From Nitrosopumilus sp. (GTDB lineage Bacteria; Planctomycetota; Planctomycetia; Pirellulales; Pirellulaceae), in assembly GCA_964225475.1 (NCBI GenBank), contig CAXQOB010000012.1, positions 18,521 to 82,520 of the forward strand: a stretch of DNA of 64,000 nt. Reading direction: 5' to 3'. Positions 21,835 to 28,778 of the stretch are shown here, in pieces (the stretch's first letter is position 1; each line of letters opens with the position of its first letter). The notes beneath the pieces were generated by a model. The model saw only the letters and a list, made by a program, of their open reading frames with translations, had not been told where the DNA came from and did no database searches. The position numbers were made by a program, and so were the translations under genes.

Positions 21835-22671
21835 TCATACCTCCAAGCTTAGGGTCACGGTGTCTTCACTTGTATCACCCCAGGGCAAAGCATGTTCTAA
21901 GTCCAGTTGTAAATGATTCAGTTCATTAATTGAGTCAAGCACGAGGTCCGGGTGATAGGGAAAGTTATGTAGGTCCTCGTGTTTGGTTGTTCCCGTCAGA
22001 ACCAGAATTGTGCGGTAGCCCATCTGAACCCCACCAAGTATGTCTGTGTCCATGGTGTCTCCGATCATCACCGTCTGTGAGGTGGCAAGTCCGAGTTCTT
22101 TTCGGGCGGCTCTCATCATCACCGGACTTGGCTTGCCCAAATTCATCGCTTTGCAACCGGTTGCCGCTTCGAGGTATGCAACGGTGGCCCCAGCACCTGG
22201 GCGGGTTCCGGATTGTGTGGGGCAATTCGGATCGAGGTTTGTTGCTATAAGTTTCGAGCCATCAAGGATCATTTGCACCGCCGTTTCTAGCATCTCGAGG
22301 TTAACCGTTCGTCCCTCACCCACTACCACGTAGTCTGGAGCTGTATCGACGATGGAATAGCCAATTTCATGCAGAGCCATGAGTAATCCACCTTCCCCAA
22401 TCACGAACGCGGTTCCTCCTGGATTTTGAGTCGATAGGAATTTCGCGGTGGCCATCGCGCAAGTGAAAATGTGTGTGTCAGATACCTTAATCCCCAGTCT
22501 GGATAGTTTGGTCGCTACATCTCTTGTCGTTCGTTGACTGTTGTTGGTGAGAAATAGAAAAGGGTGTTCTTCTCGTATCAATCGATTAATCAGGTCATCA
22601 GCACCTGGTATCAATTTTCCGCCTCGGTAGATCACGCCGTCCATATCGATCAGAAAACCACGTCGCATCAC
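21835..22671 (-). CDS. nagD: HAD-superfamily IIA hydrolase, NagD-like
   Basis: FLIDMDGVIY (motif I); FLTNNS; GKPSP; MIGDTMDTDILGG. Confidence 0.88.
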   Translation of the reverse strand: MMRRGFLIDMDGVIYRGGKLIPGADDLINRLIREEHPFLFLTNNSQRTTRDVATKLSRLGIKVSDTHIFTCAMATAKFLSTQNPGGTAFVIGEGGLLMALHEIGYSIVDTAPDYVVVGEGRTVNLEMLETAVQMILDGSKLIATNLDPNCPTQSGTRPGAGATVAYLEAATGCKAMNLGKPSPVMMRAARKELGLATSQTVMIGDTMDTDILGGVQMGYRTILVLTGTTKHEDLHNFPYHPDLVLDSINELNHLQLDLEHALPWGDTSEDTVTLSLEV

Positions 22672-23034: not shown

Positions 23035-23916
23035 TTAATCGGTTAGGTTTTCAGGAAATGCCATCGTGGCTCCGGCTTGAGTGCAGACGTAGGACGAGAG
23101 AGCGTTGGCTCTTTGGTTCATTGCTTCTATGTTTGTGTTGCCAAGCATGTCCAAAACCATCGAGGCGGTACATGCGTCCCCTGCACCGACCGTGTCGATC
23201 ACCTGCACTTTGCGTCCGGAGAGTTCGCTGAATTGATCACCGGCTAGAATTAAGGATCCTCGTTCGCCGCGTGTCAATGCTGCGAGTTGTAATTCGAATC
23301 GCTTCGAAAGATGCTGCAAGACTTCAATTTCGCCTCCCACGCAATCACATAGTTCTGCAACGACAGGTAATTCGTCCTCATTGAGTTTGAGTGCTGTGGC
23401 GGATTCGAGAGAATTGAGAATCCACTGATCGGCAATGAAGGGCGGACGAATATTGATGTCAAATACACGTAAGGAATGTTCAGGTGTCGATCGAATGAAT
23501 CGTTGAATGGTCTCCCGAGATTCCGCCGAACGTTGCCCTAGGGTGCCAAAGCAAACGGCATCACAACTTGCCGCTAGACGCTCAAGTTTTTGCGACCAAG
23601 TGAGGTGATCCCATGCGCAATTCTCGGCAAATGTGTAGCTAGCTATGCCTGCCTCATCCAATTCAACGTCAACTCTTCCTGTCGGAAGCGGGTTGGTTTG
23701 TACCGCTTCAGTGCAGACATTTCGGTTAGATAAGGCGACCAATGCATCACGCCCAAGGGTGTCATCACCAATTGCACTGACAAGAGTTACTGACGCGTGG
23801 TCTTTGGCTAATTCTGCCGTGCTACAGGCAAAATTTGCCGGTGCACCTCCAAAGCGTGGCCCATCCGGAAAGACATCCCAAAGGATTTCGCCGATTGCAA
23901 CAATCTTCGGTTTCAC
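23035..23916 (-). CDS. PfkB-family carbohydrate kinase (fructokinase-like)
   Basis: IGEILWD; FGGAPANFA; FDINIRP; LKLNEDE; TRGERG; DTVGAGDA signature. Confidence 0.93.
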   Translation of the reverse strand: MKPKIVAIGEILWDVFPDGPRFGGAPANFACSTAELAKDHASVTLVSAIGDDTLGRDALVALSNRNVCTEAVQTNPLPTGRVDVELDEAGIASYTFAENCAWDHLTWSQKLERLAASCDAVCFGTLGQRSAESRETIQRFIRSTPEHSLRVFDINIRPPFIADQWILNSLESATALKLNEDELPVVAELCDCVGGEIEVLQHLSKRFELQLAALTRGERGSLILAGDQFSELSGRKVQVIDTVGAGDACTASMVLDMLGNTNIEAMNQRANALSSYVCTQAGATMAFPENLTD

Positions 23917-24137: not shown

Positions 24138-25241
24138 TCAGGGTTTCACTGCGATTCGTATGGGTGCTTTTTCTGTAGCGTAATCGAACGCGAGGGCAGA
24201 TTGATCCAGAGGGAAAACTTTCGAGACTAGTTTTTCAAAGGGGTAAGTGTCCTTTGAGTGGCTCAAGAAATGGATCGCTTCAGCAAGATCCCGAGCGTGG
24301 TAATTATGAAGCCCTCGTATGGTCAGCATTTGTCGCACCACCACCTCAGGGTTTAATTTGATCTGCGGTGATCGGAATACAGATCCAGCAAGTAGCAAGC
24401 ATCCACCAATCCGCAAGTGCTCAAGGCTACTTGTGATCGCCTCTGTGTTACCTGAAAAATCAAAGGCAATGTCAGCACCACGATGTTGCGTCAGCTCTTG
24501 GATCTTGGTTTGGAGCGATTCGGTCTGGCAGGATTCAAAACACTCCGATGCACCAAACTCTCTCGCAATCTTGCGTCTTTCTAGATTCGGTTCAACCACC
24601 AAAATGTTTGCACCTCGTTCCTTGAGGTAAGCTGCTGCGGTAAGCCCCAGCATGCCTGCGCCAATCACTAAGATCGTCGTGTTTTTTATGGGATGCGTTT
24701 CTTCAACCAGTCGCGTAGCACCGCATACAGTCGCTGTCGCGCAATTGGCAGGGCACATTAGGGTGTCAGGAAGACCTTCTTTGATTGGAAAGATCGCAGT
24801 GCCGGACTTTAGAACACAGTGTTGCCCGAGACCACCGGTAGGTTGGTGATCACTCTCGTCGTGCCCGTATTTGAATTTCGATTGGCATTTCTGCGGTAGG
24901 TTGTCTTTACAGTAGAAACAGTCACCACAGGAGGCCACCAATGACCAAGTGACTCTTTGTCCTTTGTTCAATGGGTTGCCGAAGTAATCCTTCGGGCTAT
25001 CGGTTCCATTCCACTCTTCAATCGTCCCAATGATCTCGTGACCTAGGACGCATCCCGTGTCGGCGGTCGGTCGTCTTCCGCTGTAGGTATGGAGATCACT
25101 CCCGCAGATCGTGCATAGCGAAATCTTGACAAGTATCTCACCGTTTTTTAACTGCGGTTTGCGATAAGATTCGCTTTGAAACGTTTTAGATTTTGGAAGA
25201 TAGCGAACTGCTGTGCCAAAATGATTGGGTTCATGTTCCAT
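24138..25241 (-). CDS. Zn-dependent alcohol dehydrogenase, phosphonate-catabolism-associated type (TIGR03366-like)
   Basis: CTICGSDLH and GHE (catalytic Zn); CGDCFYC...C (structural Zn); GAGMLG; CATATV; divergent from the phosphonate-associated genes. Confidence 0.88.
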   Translation of the reverse strand: MEHEPNHFGTAVRYLPKSKTFQSESYRKPQLKNGEILVKISLCTICGSDLHTYSGRRPTADTGCVLGHEIIGTIEEWNGTDSPKDYFGNPLNKGQRVTWSLVASCGDCFYCKDNLPQKCQSKFKYGHDESDHQPTGGLGQHCVLKSGTAIFPIKEGLPDTLMCPANCATATVCGATRLVEETHPIKNTTILVIGAGMLGLTAAAYLKERGANILVVEPNLERRKIAREFGASECFESCQTESLQTKIQELTQHRGADIAFDFSGNTEAITSSLEHLRIGGCLLLAGSVFRSPQIKLNPEVVVRQMLTIRGLHNYHARDLAEAIHFLSHSKDTYPFEKLVSKVFPLDQSALAFDYATEKAPIRIAVKP

Positions 25242-25450
25242 TGTGTTTTCCCTGCCAACGGTGCGTCTAATGCGCTCGATTCTGCAATTAAATTGGCAAG
25301 AACGATGCCGGTGCTACTCTCGGTCAGGATATGTTTACCATTGAGTTGACGCTGCTTTCGGTGAGCAATGATAATAACTTGGTGGTGTTGCGGTGGTATA
25401 CGGGGTCAAACGATCTTTCGAAAAGTTCGCCGTTTTATAAGTTGAGGCTG

Positions 25451-26731
25451 ATGAATCGATCTAATCTTTCGAAGAGGCTGACGGAATTTCGGGGGCACTT
25501 CTTTTCGTTGTATTGCATCATTGCTGCGTTCGGTACGTATTTTTGCATGTATGCATTTCGAAAGCCCTTCACCGCAGCGACCTATGAGGATTCAGAGTGG
25601 TTTGGCGTCGGGTTGAAAACCTTGCTGATCGCTTCACAAGTCGCTGGTTATACGCTTTCAAAATTCTTTGGCATTAAATTTGTCTCTGAAATCAAGAAGC
25701 GTCATCGCGGAATTGCGATTGTCATCTTGGTTTTATCTGCAGAATTAGCACTGCTGCTTTTTGCCGTGACCCCCGCGCCTTGGAACTGTATTTGGCTTTT
25801 TTTTAATGGGCTACCTCTGGGGATGGTGTTCGGGCTGGTTTTGGGGTTTCTGGAGGGGAGGCGAGTATCCGAGGTGCTGGCGGCCGGGCTGTGTGCCAGC
25901 TTTATTGTCTCCTCTGGATTCGTGAAGACGGTTGGTCGTGCTTTACTGCAAAATGAGTTCGTAACAGAATCATGGATGCCTTTCTTTACAGGGCTCCTGT
26001 TTCTTTTACCACTCCTTTTGTTTGTTGGGATGCTTTCACGAATTCCGGAGCCAAATGATCGAGATGTTCTGTCGCGATCCGCTCGAGATCCAATGGACAA
26101 AGAGACACGTTTTAAGTTTTTTCGAGGGCATGCGGTTGGATTATCAAGCCTGATTTTGATCTACATGTTGATCACAGTGGTACGTAGCCTCCGTGACGAT
26201 TTTGCTGTGGAAATTTGGTCTGATCTTGGGGTTGAGGACGAACCTGCCTTGTTCGCGATTTCTGAATTTTGGGTCATGTTTGGGGTAATCTTTATTAATG
26301 GATGCTTCAGTTTGATCAGTAATAATCGGGCTGCGTTTCTAAGTTCAATTGGTACAATTATCGTGGGCGGCGTCATCATCTTATCTGCTGTCTACGGACA
26401 CTACGTCGATTTCTTTTCGCCAATGACCCTTATCATTTTGCTTGGGGTCGGAATGTATCTTCCCTACGTCGCATTCCATACAACCATGTTCGAGAGGATG
26501 ATTGCCGTCTGTAAGGAGACAGGAAACGTCGGGTATCTGATGTATTTGGCAGACGCAGTTGGGTACCTGGGATATGTAGCAGTGCTTATATTTCGTAACC
26601 TCTATTCGGGGCAGCTCGGTTACCTTTCCTTATTGATGATTAGTGCATCGGTTGTCGCGATCGTGTCATCAGTGGTCACGGTTTGGTTGTTATTTCATTT
26701 CTACGCACGAACGACCCATTCATCTCGCTAG
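25451..26731 (+). CDS. DUF5690-family MFS-like transporter, putative phosphonate importer
   Basis: About 12 TM; YFCMYAFRKPF, SQVAGYTLSKFFGIKFVSE, NGLPLGMVFG, FLEGRR, MYLPYVAFHTTMFER, GYLMYLADAVGYLG. ATG at 25451; the ORF track starts at 25331. Confidence 0.85.
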   Translation: MNRSNLSKRLTEFRGHFFSLYCIIAAFGTYFCMYAFRKPFTAATYEDSEWFGVGLKTLLIASQVAGYTLSKFFGIKFVSEIKKRHRGIAIVILVLSAELALLLFAVTPAPWNCIWLFFNGLPLGMVFGLVLGFLEGRRVSEVLAAGLCASFIVSSGFVKTVGRALLQNEFVTESWMPFFTGLLFLLPLLLFVGMLSRIPEPNDRDVLSRSARDPMDKETRFKFFRGHAVGLSSLILIYMLITVVRSLRDDFAVEIWSDLGVEDEPALFAISEFWVMFGVIFINGCFSLISNNRAAFLSSIGTIIVGGVIILSAVYGHYVDFFSPMTLIILLGVGMYLPYVAFHTTMFERMIAVCKETGNVGYLMYLADAVGYLGYVAVLIFRNLYSGQLGYLSLLMISASVVAIVSSVVTVWLLFHFYARTTHSSR

Positions 26732-26748: not shown

Positions 26749-27912
26749 ATGGAGAGTCAAGAAGCAGATCTCTTGGTGATTGGCGGTGGCGTTCTCGGCG
26801 CTTTTCATGCTTTTCATGCACTGCAACGCGGACTTCGTGTCACGATGTTGGAACGCAATTCCGAGCCTCTGGGAGCGACGGTGCGGAATTTTGGGCAGGT
26901 TGTTCCCTCGGGTATGGACTCTCACTGGCAGCAGTTGGGGCGACGGAGCCTCCAGATTTACCAGACATTGCAGAGCGAGGCAGATCTCTCGATTCGTCAG
27001 CAAGGTAGTATTTATATCGCTTCGGATGAGTGTGAATTGGCGCTGCTGGAGGAGCTGGCCGATATCAACCGCCAAAACGATTACTGCTCCGAGTTGTTGT
27101 CAGCGAAGCAATGCTGCGAACGTTATCCCGGGTTGAGAACCGACTACTGTAAAGGCGGTCTCTTCTTTCCCGATGAATTATCACTCAACCCTCGCGAGAT
27201 GATTCATCGATTGCATCGTCTGCTCAAGGCAAATGCTGATTACCACTGTTGTTTCAGTGCGGGGGTGAAAGAGCTCTCGGAAGTTGGTTCGGAAGGTGTC
27301 GTTGCAGTTACAGAATCGGATCAGCGTTATTACGCGAAACGAGCCATCTTGTGTGGCGGATGTGACTTTCGTTCACTGTTTCCTGATGTATTTCTTCGTA
27401 GCGGTTTGGTGACGGTTCAGTTGCAAATGACGCGTCTGAGGCCGAATACGGCTCAACGGTTACCTGGGAATATTTTGACAGGGTTGACGATCCGCCGGTA
27501 TGAAAGTTTTTCATTCTGTCCGTCTTGGCAATCCGTGCAGTCGCAGAATGACGGTGAGGATTTTGCCACGAAGTGGGGGATTCACATTCTATTCAAGCAG
27601 GAGGTAGACGGCGGGATGATCCTTGGGGATTCACACGAGTATGCAAAACTAGGTGAAGAGGCGAACCTAGACTTTGGTCTTCGGCAGGATATCACCGACT
27701 TCTTCATTCGCGAGGGTCGCAAGATTTTTGATTTGCCGCACTGGGAGATTGACACATCATGGATGGGGCGATACTCACAGACCTCTGACCCCTCTGGTAT
27801 CTTTAAAGAGACGATTGGAGACCGAATTCATATCGTTACCGGGATTGGTGGCAAGGGAATGACCGCGAGCCCTGGATTTGCTGAGAACCACATCGGGGAG
27901 ATTTTTTCATGA
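26749..27912 (+). CDS. FAD-dependent oxidoreductase, DAO-like, phosphonate-associated (TIGR03364-like)
   Basis: DLLVIGGGVLG (FAD binding); GATVRNFGQ; LTGLTIRRYESF; GIHILFKQ; ILGDSHEY; TGIGGKGMT. AGGAGG lies upstream of ATG 26749. Confidence 0.88.
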   Translation: MESQEADLLVIGGGVLGAFHAFHALQRGLRVTMLERNSEPLGATVRNFGQVVPSGMDSHWQQLGRRSLQIYQTLQSEADLSIRQQGSIYIASDECELALLEELADINRQNDYCSELLSAKQCCERYPGLRTDYCKGGLFFPDELSLNPREMIHRLHRLLKANADYHCCFSAGVKELSEVGSEGVVAVTESDQRYYAKRAILCGGCDFRSLFPDVFLRSGLVTVQLQMTRLRPNTAQRLPGNILTGLTIRRYESFSFCPSWQSVQSQNDGEDFATKWGIHILFKQEVDGGMILGDSHEYAKLGEEANLDFGLRQDITDFFIREGRKIFDLPHWEIDTSWMGRYSQTSDPSGIFKETIGDRIHIVTGIGGKGMTASPGFAENHIGEIFS

Positions 27913-28577
27913 TAAAGTTGGTCGTATTCGACATGGCTGGGACAACCGTTGATGAGGACAATGTTGTCTACAAGACGGTAAGAGCGGCGATCAATTCAGC
28001 CGGTTACTCTTTCACTCAAGATCAAGTGCAAGCGGCAGGCGCCGGTAAGGAAAAATCCCAGGCCATACGTGATGTTCTGGCTCTTGATGGATCGGAGCAT
28101 GATGAAGAAGAGGTGCAAGTCATCTTCGCTGATTTCAAGAGGCTTCTCGCCGCGGCTTACTGCGATCTAGATGTACGCGAGCAGCCCTACACCACAGAGG
28201 TCTTTGAAGCGTTACGTGAGCGGGGAATCAAAGTGGTGCTGAATACGGGATACGATCGAAAAACTGCAGAAAGCTTGATCGACAAGATTGGATGGAAACT
28301 GCATGAACACTTTGATGCATTGGTGACGGCCAGCGATGTCGAGAATGGTCGCCCGGCGCCCGATATGATTCACCTTGCTATGGATCGAGTTGGGGTCAGC
28401 GAATCCAAAGCGGTGGTCAAAATAGGTGACTCGCAAATTGATATTCACGAAGGTAAGAACAGTGATTGTGGAGTGACGATAGGGATTACAACAGGTGCTC
28501 AGACTCAGTCGCAACTATTGGAGGCCAGTCCAACATACATCATTCACTCACTGCGTGAATTATTAGAGCTTGTTTGA
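27909..28577 (+). CDS. Phosphonatase-like HAD hydrolase (PhnX-like, TIGR03351-like)
   Basis: VVFDMAGTTVDE (DxAGT, as in phosphonatases); GKEK; LNTGY; GRPAPDMI; KIGDSQIDI.EG. ATGA overlap with the oxidoreductase stop codon. Confidence 0.88.
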   Translation: MIKLVVFDMAGTTVDEDNVVYKTVRAAINSAGYSFTQDQVQAAGAGKEKSQAIRDVLALDGSEHDEEEVQVIFADFKRLLAAAYCDLDVREQPYTTEVFEALRERGIKVVLNTGYDRKTAESLIDKIGWKLHEHFDALVTASDVENGRPAPDMIHLAMDRVGVSESKAVVKIGDSQIDIHEGKNSDCGVTIGITTGAQTQSQLLEASPTYIIHSLRELLELV

Positions 28578-28778
28578 TTCTGGGGTAAGCTGCAGGGGTA
28601 GCTTTATTTGATATCGAGTCAATTCCGCAGTGTTATGGTTCTGCAAGCAGTGAAGAGGATCTGGCTGTTTATTTAACGATCCATCACATTCCGGTAGTGC
28701 ACAGGTGTGTTAGTCGGTGACGATTGCGTTACAATTCACACGAATTATGGGTCAGTTGTTTCTTTTTCGGAATATACA

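What the first reader, a model, noticed from the sequence alone, without database searches (positions are those of the whole stretch)
27909..28577. PhnX-like enzyme keeps the Schiff-base Lys position but lacks the Met and His helpers
Motif I is DMAGT; Ala replacing the second Asp is the phosphonatase hallmark (DWAGT in PhnX). By eye, the cap loop GAGKEKSQA aligns with Bacillus cereus PhnX PMGLLKIDH (M49-G50-K53-H56). Gly and Lys are retained, but the Met and His positions are Ala. This suggests Schiff-base chemistry with a different aldehyde-phosphonate substrate or an altered mechanism.
Basis: partly seen in the sequence, partly recalled or inferred. Interest (0 to 1): 0.6.

Follow-up and report, generated by a model that had tools for sequence, protein, structure and literature searches.

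The report
Phosphonatase-like hydrolase lacking helper His
This gene belongs to an already named but never assayed family of phosphonatase-like enzymes; it keeps the catalytic lysine of the classical C-P bond-cleaving enzyme PhnX, lacks two of its helper residues, and most likely does the same job, splitting phosphonoacetaldehyde into acetaldehyde and phosphate.

Summary
ORF 27909-28577 (+) encodes a 222-aa HAD hydrolase with motif I DMAGT. Family alignments, a profile alignment to B. cereus PhnX and two AlphaFold models all put Lys49 at the PhnX Lys53 position. Gly46 matches Gly50, Ala52 replaces His56, Ala45 replaces Met49 and Asn18 replaces Cys22.

It is not a new kind of enzyme. It scores 281 bits on NCBIfam TIGR03351, "phosphonatase-like hydrolase" (the HpnX of the proposed HpnWXZ pathway). 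At least 592 species genomes hold a relative. His56-to-Ala is a hallmark of the whole family. Met49-to-Ala/Gly is confined to this subgroup.

A different substrate is not favoured. The gene is start/stop-coupled to a PbfD-type FAD amine oxidase and lies near a PbfG-type Zn alcohol dehydrogenase. Characterised members of both families make phosphonoacetaldehyde. Relatives pair with either of these or with an Fe-ADH that may be PhpC-like, and the cap loop stays the same. A related planctomycete has canonical PhnX between the same partner families. Canonical PhnX and the PhnX-like gene never co-occurred in the genomes searched.

The best reading is a phosphonoacetaldehyde hydrolase with a rewired proton relay. 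No assay of any family member was found. The scan made the same observation earlier on another genome (e1-5132568).

The parts
27909..28577 (+). PhnX-like (HpnX) phosphonatase-like HAD hydrolase, 222 aa
   Evidence: ORF. TIGR03351 scores 281.1 bits against a cutoff of 218.9; TIGR01422 scores 114.9 against 220. AlphaFold pLDDT is 96.7. The best structural match is PhnX 1rql, Z 26.5, rmsd 1.9 A over 216 residues.
27930..27944 (+). HAD motif I DMAGT: Asp8 nucleophile, Ala10 at the Asp+2 position
   Evidence: D, A, G and T are invariant or nearly so in 94 representatives and 80 genome loci.
27954..27971 (+). Flap segment EDNVVY: Glu16, Asn18 (B. cereus Cys22 position) and Tyr21, subgroup-specific conserved residues
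   Evidence: All 80 loci read xExNxVY. The alignment places Asn18 on Cys22.
28038..28064 (+). Cap loop GAGKEKSQA: Ala45 (Met49), Gly46 (Gly50), Lys49 (Lys53, nt 28053-28055), Ala52 (His56)
28245..28253 (+). HAD motif II TGY: Thr113 (Thr126) and Tyr115 (Tyr128)
   Evidence: Tyr is kept in subgroup A and is Phe in subgroup B.
28350..28352 (+). Arg148, the Arg that replaces the usual HAD motif III Lys (B. cereus Arg160)
   Evidence: Invariant in 94/94 PhnX-like and in the canonical sequences.
28428..28442 (+). HAD motif IV DSQID: Asp174 and Asp178 (B. cereus Asp186 and Asp190, Mg2+ site)
   Evidence: Both invariant in 94/94; coordinates checked.
26749..27912 (+). PbfD-type FAD-dependent amine oxidoreductase (TIGR03364). 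Its TGA overlaps the ATG of the hydrolase gene (ATGA at 27909-27912).
   Evidence: TIGR03364 scores 374.1 bits against a cutoff of 285.1. Overlap seen in the sequence. Likely start at Met23 of the ORF. Family function: PMC10590968.
25331..26731 (+). DUF5690 membrane protein, the cluster's probable phosphonate importer
   Evidence: PF18943 at E 1.2e-137. Co-located with the hydrolase in 38 of 80 related loci.
24138..25241 (-). PbfG-type Zn-dependent alcohol dehydrogenase (TIGR03366), divergently transcribed
   Evidence: TIGR03366 scores 389.6 bits against a cutoff of 328.1. 41% identical to the TIGR03366 protein of the canonical PhnX cluster in G070. PbfG function: PMC13576164. That PbfG equals TIGR03366 is my inference.
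28587..28604 (+). Terminator-like hairpin 10 nt after the stop codon, a possible operon end
   Evidence: This is a consensus match only: 7 such sites were found in the region against 4.5 expected.

Best explanation
The gene encodes the phosphonoacetaldehyde (PAA) hydrolase of a transaminase-free phosphonate-catabolic cluster. A DUF5690 carrier probably imports 2-aminoethylphosphonate (AEP), N-methyl-AEP and/or 2-hydroxyethylphosphonate (HEP). The PbfD-type FAD oxidase converts the amines to PAA, and the PbfG-type Zn dehydrogenase converts HEP to PAA. This PhnX-like HAD enzyme then cleaves the C-P bond. Lys49 in the cap forms a Schiff base with the aldehyde. Asp8 attacks phosphorus, with Mg2+ held by Asp8, Asp174 and Asp178 and the phosphonate held by Arg148 and Thr113. 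Acetaldehyde and phosphate are released. The proton-transfer and positioning roles that His56, Met49 and Cys22 play in B. cereus PhnX must be covered by other residues. Candidates conserved in this subgroup are Glu48, Glu16, Asn18, Tyr21, Tyr84 and the retained Tyr115. Shown here: the residue equivalences, the fold, the family membership, the gene context and the distribution across genomes. Inferred: the substrate, the Schiff-base mechanism and the replacement relay.
For: (1) Catalytic core is retained. Asp8, Ala10, Gly11, Thr12, Gly46, Lys49, Thr113, Gly114, Arg148, Asp174 and Asp178 are invariant or nearly so, and align with B. cereus Asp12, Ala14, Gly15, Thr16, Gly50, Lys53, Thr126, Gly127, Arg160, Asp186 and Asp190.
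(2) Fold. The AlphaFold model has pLDDT 96.7. Its best structural match is PhnX with bound inhibitor (1rql), Z 26.5 and rmsd 1.9 A over 216 of 222 residues, so cap and core superpose together.
(3) Operon. The stop of the TIGR03364 FAD oxidase overlaps this gene's start as ATGA. Natural fusions of TIGR03364 with the PhnX-like domain exist (P0127, P0137).
(4) Partner chemistry. PbfD enzymes oxidise AEP and N-methyl-AEP to PAA, shown by NMR and a coupled assay. PbfD1 is annotated TIGR03364, and PbfD2 comes from the planctomycete Mariniblastus fucicola, whose genome apparently lacks phnW (PMC10590968). PbfG and PhpC oxidise HEP to PAA, and their clusters occur in Planctomycetota (for pbfG the paper names Pirellulales) with 'phnX' (PMC13576164).
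(5) Context across genomes. Of 59 related loci with at least 4 kb on both sides, 47 carry a PbfD-like gene, a PbfG-like gene or an Fe-ADH within 8 kb, often directly adjacent.
(6) The cap loop [GA][AGV]G[KRM]EKxx[AS][IV] and the flap xExNxVY are the same in all 80 loci whichever partner is present. The substrate is therefore what the partners have in common.
(7) No alternative sink. The own genome (94.7% complete) has no canonical PhnX, PhnW, PhnA or PhnY above the family cutoffs.
(8) Same slot. In G070 a canonical PhnX sits between a TIGR03364 oxidase and a TIGR03366 dehydrogenase.
(9) Complementary distribution. Among 121 genomes of the order, 42 have canonical PhnX and 8 have the PhnX-like gene, with none holding both. 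In the own family, 5 of 6 relatives have canonical PhnX. Four further PhnX-like genomes also lack canonical PhnX.
Against: No member of TIGR03351 has been assayed in any paper I could find. The published coupled assays used the PhnX of Vibrio splendidus, not a cluster's own phnX. By my recollection of Morais et al. 2004 (paper not held), His56, Met49 and Cys22 were reported important for Schiff-base formation in B. cereus PhnX, so their joint loss could mean low PAA activity or another substrate. Replacing Met and His with Ala should enlarge the pocket, which fits a bulkier 2-oxoalkylphosphonate. Twelve of the 59 well-flanked loci show none of the three partner types. The 0-of-8 overlap with canonical PhnX would have p about 0.03 if the genomes were independent, and they are not. 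No coordinates were available, so the Lys49-to-Asp8 geometry was not measured.
Confidence: 0.7

Rival explanations
1. It uses the same Schiff-base chemistry, but its preferred substrate is a different 2-oxoalkylphosphonate, for example 1-hydroxy-phosphonoacetaldehyde from 1-hydroxy-2-aminoethylphosphonate (the original TIGRFAM proposal), or a substituted or ketone analogue. The pocket enlarged by Met49-to-Ala and His56-to-Ala would accommodate it.
For: Three carbonyl-side residues of canonical PhnX are replaced, two of them by Ala. The family scores far below the PhnX equivalog cutoff, 114.9 against 220. The TIGR03364 curators suggested a hydroxylated substrate, as quoted in PMC10590968. Fusions with PhnZ-like HD oxygenases exist, and the M. 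fucicola cluster holds a phnZ homologue, which links the family to hydroxy-aminophosphonate metabolism.
Against: The characterised PbfD and PbfG enzymes yield plain PAA (PMC10590968, PMC13576164). The loop is identical whether the partner is an amine oxidase or an alcohol dehydrogenase. Canonical PhnX occupies the same slot with the same partner families. No genome searched holds both enzymes.
Confidence: 0.17
2. It is an ordinary HAD phosphomonoesterase, or another non-phosphonate hydrolase, that merely resembles PhnX. The conserved Lys would be structural or substrate-binding.
For: Pfam sees only generic HAD domains. Structural Z scores to phosphatases such as AlnB and phosphoglycolate phosphatases are close to those for PhnX, 24-26.
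Against: Ala replaces the Asp+2 general acid/base that HAD phosphatases use, and Arg replaces the motif III Lys. Both are PhnX hallmarks and are invariant here. Sequence profiles put PhnX far ahead of any phosphatase, E 4.6e-51 against 1e-21. The gene is tightly coupled, and in some genomes fused, to phosphonate-oxidising enzymes.
Confidence: 0.05
3. It hydrolyses PAA, but the Schiff-base lysine is Lys47 (the register of the pairwise alignment) with Lys49 standing in for His56, or no Schiff base forms at all.
For: The pairwise phmmer alignment to 1fez pairs Lys47 with Lys53 and Lys49 with His56. Lys47 is conserved in 78 of 80 close genome loci.
Against: Across the wider family the Lys47 column is K 27, Y 18, M 13, I 12, L 9, F 3, whereas Lys49 is 92/94. 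The profile alignment is gap-free with Lys49 on Lys53. The Asp-to-Lys spacing and the helix start are identical.
Confidence: 0.05

Closest known systems
Phosphonoacetaldehyde hydrolase PhnX (phosphonatase, EC 3.11.1.1; NCBIfam TIGR01422; B. cereus structures 1fez, 1rql, 2iof)
   Same: HAD fold with a C1 helical cap (Z 26.5, rmsd 1.9 A). DxAGT motif with Ala at Asp+2. Cap Gly and Lys with the same 41-residue spacing from the nucleophile. Thr-Gly-Tyr motif II. Arg in place of the motif III Lys. Asp-x3-Asp Mg2+ site. Sits in the same cluster position next to PAA-generating enzymes.
   Different: About 28-31% identity. Below the equivalog cutoff (114.9 against 220 bits). His56 to Ala, Met49 to Ala, Cys22 to Asn, Trp13 to Met. 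About 40 residues shorter: it lacks a cap insertion (about residues 62-75) and a C-terminal helical insertion (about 209-239). No adjacent PhnW in any of 80 loci. No assay was found in the held literature.
NCBIfam TIGR03351 'phosphonatase-like hydrolase' (HpnX of the proposed HpnWXZ pathway; Acker et al. 2022, PMC8931226)
   Same: Full-length match at 281 bits, above the cutoff. Synteny with the TIGR03364 FAD oxidoreductase and the TIGR03366 Zn-ADH. No PhnW. This is the family the gene belongs to.
   Different: Nothing essential. Within the family this protein falls in a subgroup (GAGKEK loop, NTGY) that has also lost Met49. A second subgroup (VMGxPKPxAI, DTGF) keeps Met49 but has Phe at the Tyr128 position.
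pbfD2-phnX cluster of Mariniblastus fucicola, and the pbfG-phnX clusters described for Planctomycetota (Pirellulales) (Zangelmi et al. 2023, PMC10590968; Piazza et al. 2026, PMC13576164)
   Same: Same phylum and the same gene set: FAD amine oxidase and/or Zn-ADH plus a 'phnX' and a transporter, with no phnW. The pathway logic is identical.
   Different: Those papers call the hydrolase simply PhnX and used the Vibrio splendidus enzyme in their assays. I could not fetch the M. fucicola hydrolase sequence, so I could not confirm that it is the TIGR03351 type.

Membership tests
Canonical PhnX (TIGR01422, EC 3.11.1.1) | Score above the curated equivalog cutoff | tested here: not met
   114.9 bits against a cutoff of 220.
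Canonical PhnX (TIGR01422, EC 3.11.1.1) | Motif I DxAGT: Asp nucleophile, with Ala instead of the second Asp | tested here: met
   DMAGT at residues 8-12.
Canonical PhnX (TIGR01422, EC 3.11.1.1) | Cap-domain Schiff-base Lys (Lys53) preceded by Gly50 | tested here: met
   Lys49 and Gly46 occupy these positions by multiple alignment, gap-free profile alignment, equal Asp-to-Lys spacing and equal helix start.
Canonical PhnX (TIGR01422, EC 3.11.1.1) | His56, Met49 and Cys22 lining the carbonyl side of the active site | tested here: not met
   Ala52, Ala45 and Asn18 stand at these positions. Their roles are taken from the review PMC7916636 and from my recollection of Morais et al. 2004.
Canonical PhnX (TIGR01422, EC 3.11.1.1) | Tyr128, Thr126, Arg160, Asp186 and Asp190 | tested here: met
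   Tyr115, Thr113, Arg148, Asp174 and Asp178.
Canonical PhnX (TIGR01422, EC 3.11.1.1) | Genomic association with the AEP transaminase PhnW | tested here: not met
   No PhnW above cutoff in the own genome. None within 8 kb in any of 80 related loci.
Canonical PhnX (TIGR01422, EC 3.11.1.1) | Mg2+-dependent hydrolysis of phosphonoacetaldehyde through a borohydride-trappable imine | not testable with these tools
   Needs the purified enzyme. No published assay of a family member was found.
TIGR03351 phosphonatase-like hydrolase (HpnX) | Score above the curated cutoff over the full length | tested here: met
   281.1 bits against 218.9; residues 2-222 on profile positions 1-219 of 220.
TIGR03351 phosphonatase-like hydrolase (HpnX) | Synteny with a TIGR03364 FAD oxidoreductase and/or a TIGR03366 Zn-ADH, without PhnW | tested here: met
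   Both are adjacent in the window. 42 of 59 well-flanked related loci have one or both; adding the 5 loci with an Fe-ADH gives 47.
HAD superfamily, subfamily I with a C1 helical cap | Rossmannoid core with four HAD motifs and a helical cap inserted after motif I | tested here: met
   Pfam PF00702 and PF13419. Model secondary structure. Z 22-26 to many HAD-IA structures.

The most novel reading that the evidence does not exclude
The whole TIGR03351 family, found in at least 592 species genomes, cleaves C-P bonds through a Lys Schiff base that is assisted by a proton relay different from the one in PhnX. Tyr84, which is family-wide, and Glu16, Glu48 and Tyr21 in this subgroup would replace His56, Met49 and Cys22. 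The enlarged pocket would give it a broader or shifted range of 2-oxoalkylphosphonate substrates. It would then be a second, independently tuned solution to phosphonatase catalysis, not a degraded copy of PhnX.
Probability: 0.2. Interest if true: 0.5.

Novelty: new member of a known kind. Interest (0 to 1): 0.3.

Why it matters
The oxidase (PbfD, 2023) and the dehydrogenase (PbfG, 2026) of the transaminase-free HpnWXZ-type phosphonate route have been characterised. The hydrolase, which actually breaks the C-P bond, has not. Papers label it 'PhnX' although it lacks three residues that line the carbonyl side of the PhnX active site in the classical mechanism. Surveys that use the canonical PhnX equivalog model at its cutoff will miss it. 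In the order searched here, 8 of 121 genomes carry only this form. Showing that it hydrolyses phosphonoacetaldehyde, and how it does so without His56, would close the pathway and refine the textbook PhnX mechanism. This is gap-filling enzymology, not a surprise.

Tried and rejected
- Pairwise phmmer register (Lys47 on Lys53, Lys49 on His56): rejected on family conservation and the profile alignment.
- The search for related loci with the broad alignment A2 failed because no stretch was conserved enough. It worked with the subgroup alignment A3, so the 80 loci cover subgroup A only.
- Model coordinates are not exposed. I could not measure Lys49-Asp8 distances or test which conserved residues lie near Lys49. 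I relied on whole-chain superposition statistics and secondary-structure register.
- The primary mechanistic paper on PhnX (Morais et al. 2004, JBC) is not held. The roles of His56, Met49 and Cys22 rest on a review (PMC7916636) and my recollection.
- The supplementary tables of the PbfG paper are not held. I could not confirm that PbfG of Cellulosimicrobium protaetiae is a TIGR03366 member, nor check the hydrolase type in the published Pirellulales clusters. That equation is inferred from Pfam family, threonine-dehydrogenase likeness, taxonomy and cluster make-up.
- The PfkB kinase (23035-23916) was considered as part of the cluster and rejected: it is absent from all 80 related loci.
- The phylum-level sample was too sparse to be informative, so the order-level sample was used instead.
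- The FastTree phylogeny separates canonical PhnX (support 100) and groups subgroup A on one side. It is poorly resolved and unrooted, so no order of events is claimed.
Full report
**1. What is there**

The ORF at 27909-28577 on the + strand is open and gives 222 residues. DMAGT lies at residues 8-12. The string GAGKEKSQA lies at residues 44-52 (nt 28038-28064). Pfam sees only generic HAD domains.

NCBIfam is specific. TIGR03351, 'PhnX-like: phosphonatase-like hydrolase', scores 281.1 bits against a cutoff of 218.9 over the full length. The true phosphonatase model TIGR01422 scores 114.9 against 220. So the gene belongs to a named family that was set apart from PhnX long ago.

The neighbours are also named families:
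- 24138-25241 (-): TIGR03366, 'phosphonate catabolism associated alcohol dehydrogenase', 389.6 bits.
- 25331-26731 (+): DUF5690.
- 26683/26749-27912 (+): TIGR03364 FAD-dependent oxidoreductase, 374.1 bits.

The oxidoreductase stop codon overlaps the hydrolase start codon as ATGA. A terminator-like hairpin follows the hydrolase stop by 10 nt (a weak consensus match). The next gene downstream, a DUF1559 prepilin-like gene, is convergent and marks the genome as planctomycete.

**2.

A plain pairwise phmmer alignment to B. cereus PhnX (1fez) gives a different register. It inserts two gaps and pairs Lys47 with Lys53 and Lys49 with His56. I therefore tested the register at family level.

A search of 1.84 billion 50%-identity representatives gave 133 relatives at E <= 1e-30. 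I aligned 94 full-length ones with four canonical PhnX. These came from planctomycete genomes and score 342-346 bits on TIGR01422. The columns read as follows:

| Position here | PhnX-like representatives (94) | Canonical PhnX (4) |
|---|---|---|
| Lys49 | K 92 | K (Lys53) |
| Gly46 | invariant | G (Gly50) |
| Ala52 | A 84, V 5, G 4, T 1 | H (His56) |
| Ala45 | M 48, A 27, G 6, R 4, H 3 | M (Met49) |
| Lys47 | K 27, Y 18, M 13, I 12, L 9, F 3 | not conserved |

The family forms a visible series: canonical PMGxxKxxH[IV], then VMGxPKPxAI, then GAGKEKxxAI. This fixes the register without gaps.

A profile of the alignment matches 2iof and 1rql at E about 5e-51, with 'evmGlekpeair' directly over 'KPMGLLKIDHVR'.

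The AlphaFold model of the window protein (pLDDT 96.7) starts a cap helix exactly at Lys49 (helix 49-60). A model of a canonical planctomycete PhnX, whose numbering coincides with B. cereus, starts the equivalent helix at Lys53 (helix 53-61). The nucleophile Asp lies 41 residues before the Lys in both.

VIA-align puts 1rql (PhnX with vinyl sulfonate) at the top: Z 26.5, rmsd 1.9 A over 216 of 222 residues. Cap and core therefore superpose together.

**3. What else differs from PhnX**

Using the canonical numbering:
- Retained: Asp12, Ala14, Gly15, Thr16, Gly50, Lys53, Thr126, Gly127, Tyr128, Arg160, Asp186 and Asp190.
- Changed: Trp13 to Met, Cys22 to Asn, Met49 to Ala, His56 to Ala.

The protein is about 40 residues shorter. 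It lacks a cap insertion and a C-terminal helical insertion.

Two subgroups appear. Subgroup A, which includes this gene, has the [GA][AG]GKEK loop, NTGY, and invariant Glu16, Tyr21 and Tyr84, with Asn18 and Glu48 nearly so. Subgroup B has VMGxPKPxAI and DTGF. A subgroup B member also passes the TIGR03351 cutoff (P0163, 233 bits). So His56-to-Ala is a hallmark of the whole family, and loss of Met49 is specific to subgroup A.

Tyr84 is hydrophobic in canonical PhnX. It is invariant in subgroup A and present in 55/59 of subgroup B. It is the most obvious candidate for a replacement proton-transfer residue. This is inference only.

**4. What does it act on?**

The literature now covers both neighbours.

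The TIGR03364 description, as quoted by Zangelmi et al. 2023, proposed oxidation of a hydroxylated aminophosphonate. Those authors showed that PbfD enzymes oxidise N-methyl-AEP and AEP to plain phosphonoacetaldehyde (PAA). PbfD1 is annotated TIGR03364. PbfD2 comes from the planctomycete Mariniblastus fucicola (PMC10590968). In M. fucicola the cluster lacks phnW, the gene is apparently absent from the whole genome, and the pathway is drawn as PbfD2 + 'PhnX'.

Piazza et al. 2026 showed that two unrelated dehydrogenases oxidise 2-hydroxyethylphosphonate to PAA: PbfG (a Pfam PF00107 enzyme resembling threonine dehydrogenase) and PhpC (PF00465, Fe-ADH type). They report pbfG clusters in Planctomycetota (Pirellulales) containing 'phnX', with or without pbfD, and phpC-type degradative clusters in Planctomycetota too (PMC13576164). 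In both papers the PhnX used for assays was from Vibrio splendidus. I found no paper that assays a TIGR03351 member. Acker et al. 2022 still list 'HpnWXZ' as a proposed pathway.

**5. My own tests of the PAA reading**

(a) Context. A scan of one genome per species found at least 592 genomes with a relative. The 80 loci kept span Planctomycetota, Akkermansiaceae, many Bacteroidota, a Beijerinckiaceae and a Rokubacteria MAG. Of the 59 loci with at least 4 kb on both sides, 47 have a partner within 8 kb, often directly adjacent:
- PbfD-like only: 20
- PbfG-like only: 12
- Both: 10
- Fe-ADH only: 4
- PbfD-like plus Fe-ADH: 1
- None: 12

The Fe-ADH is PF00465, and its best NCBIfam hit is the phosphonate-linked PsrA model, below cutoff.

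(b) Loop conservation. In all 80 loci the loop reads [GA][AGV]G[KRM]EKxx[AS][IV] and the flap reads xExNxVY, whichever partner is present. An active site that does not change between amine-oxidase and alcohol-dehydrogenase partners points to their common product.

(c) No alternative sink. The own genome (94.7% complete) has no canonical PhnX, PhnW, PhnA or PhnY above cutoff.

(d) Same slot. In a genome of the same class (G070), a canonical PhnX sits in the row TIGR03364 oxidase, GlpT-like MFS, PhnX, PhnW, TIGR03366 dehydrogenase.

(e) Complementary distribution. Among 121 genomes of the same order, 42 have canonical PhnX and 8 have the PhnX-like gene, with no overlap. In the own family, 5 of 6 relatives carry canonical PhnX and none the PhnX-like gene. 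The hypergeometric chance of no overlap is about 0.03 if the genomes were independent, which they are not. Four further genomes with the PhnX-like gene (Rhodopirellula, Chitinophaga, Pedobacter, Dyadobacter) also lack canonical PhnX and PhnW.

(f) Fusions. Natural fusions of a TIGR03364 oxidase with the PhnX-like domain exist.

**6. Verdict on mechanism**

I put about 0.7 on this protein being the cluster's PAA hydrolase. It would work as PhnX does, with a Lys49 imine, Asp8 attack on phosphorus and Mg2+ at Asp8, Asp174 and Asp178. A different set of residues would handle proton transfer around the imine.

I put about 0.17 on a shifted or broadened substrate. The two Ala substitutions should enlarge the pocket. 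The links to PhnZ-like HD oxygenases keep the hydroxylated-substrate idea alive.

An ordinary phosphatase is unlikely, because the Asp+2 general acid is Ala and the motif III Lys is Arg throughout the family. The Lys47 register is unlikely on conservation.

**7. Novelty**

The gene is one more member of a family defined in the TIGRFAMs era, and genome annotation would name it automatically. Its cluster type is described in two recent papers. The same residue observation was already noted by this scan on another genome (e1-5132568).

What is not in the literature I could search is the explicit point that these 'PhnX' proteins lack His56 family-wide, and Met49 and Cys22 in this subgroup, and that none has been assayed. 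That is a fair, modest enzymology question, and it is directly testable.

Noticed in passing
P0127 (621 aa) and P0137 (644 aa), metagenomic representatives: Natural fusions of a TIGR03364 (PbfD-type) FAD oxidase to a C-terminal PhnX-like domain. P0127 scores 406 and 223 bits on the two models. This is a Rosetta-stone link between the two adjacent genes of the window.
   Followed up: partly
P0134 (426 aa) and P0139 (419 aa): Fusions of a PhnZ-like HD-domain oxygenase (TIGR03276, 189-195 bits, just under the 214.6 cutoff) to a PhnX-like domain. The oxidative and the hydrolytic C-P cleavage enzymes would sit in one chain. The reason is unclear, since PhnZ products are not aldehydes.
   Followed up: partly
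P0221 (564 aa), P0254 and P0210; also the single-domain P0244 and P0207: A PhnX-like subclade fused to a beta-hydroxyacid dehydrogenase (NAD_binding_2/11, like tartronate semialdehyde reductase). Its cap loop reads W-H-G-x-x-K-x-x-V. A His sits at the Met49 position and not at position 56, as if the helper His had moved.
   Followed up: no
L107 4275-10532 (G070, same class): One row holds a TIGR03364 oxidase, a GlpT-like MFS carrier, canonical PhnX, PhnW and a TIGR03366 Zn-ADH. This is a cluster with both the transaminase and the oxidase routes plus the HEP dehydrogenase, built around a canonical PhnX.
   Followed up: partly
L034, L036, L038, L041 and L048 (Pirellulaceae, Rubripirellula and Rhodopirellula MAGs): Here the PhnX-like gene sits with an Fe-ADH (PF00465), in place of PbfD or PbfG. 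L036, L038, L041 and L048 also carry an MFS carrier and a cupin-HTH regulator; L034 instead has a TRAP DctM carrier nearby. This looks like a dedicated 2-hydroxyethylphosphonate cluster.
   Followed up: partly
window 28158-28160 (Tyr84) and its family column: Tyr84 is invariant in subgroup A and present in 55/59 of subgroup B. The position is Leu, Ala or Ile in canonical PhnX (position 98). It is the only polar residue conserved across the whole PhnX-like family and absent from PhnX.
   Followed up: no
window 21835-22671 (-): A second, unrelated HAD hydrolase (Hydrolase_6 / Hydrolase_like, NagD type) lies 1.5 kb beyond the cluster.
   Followed up: no
window 23035-23916 (-): A PfkB-family sugar kinase lies directly downstream of the Zn-ADH on the same strand. 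It is found in none of 80 related loci, so it is probably not part of the phosphonate cluster.
   Followed up: yes
G153 (Chitinophaga jiangningensis) and G155 (Dyadobacter bucti): These genomes hold two or three PhnX-like paralogues each (TIGR01422 scores 102-127 bits) and no canonical PhnX. This may mean separate AEP and HEP clusters, each with its own hydrolase.
   Followed up: no
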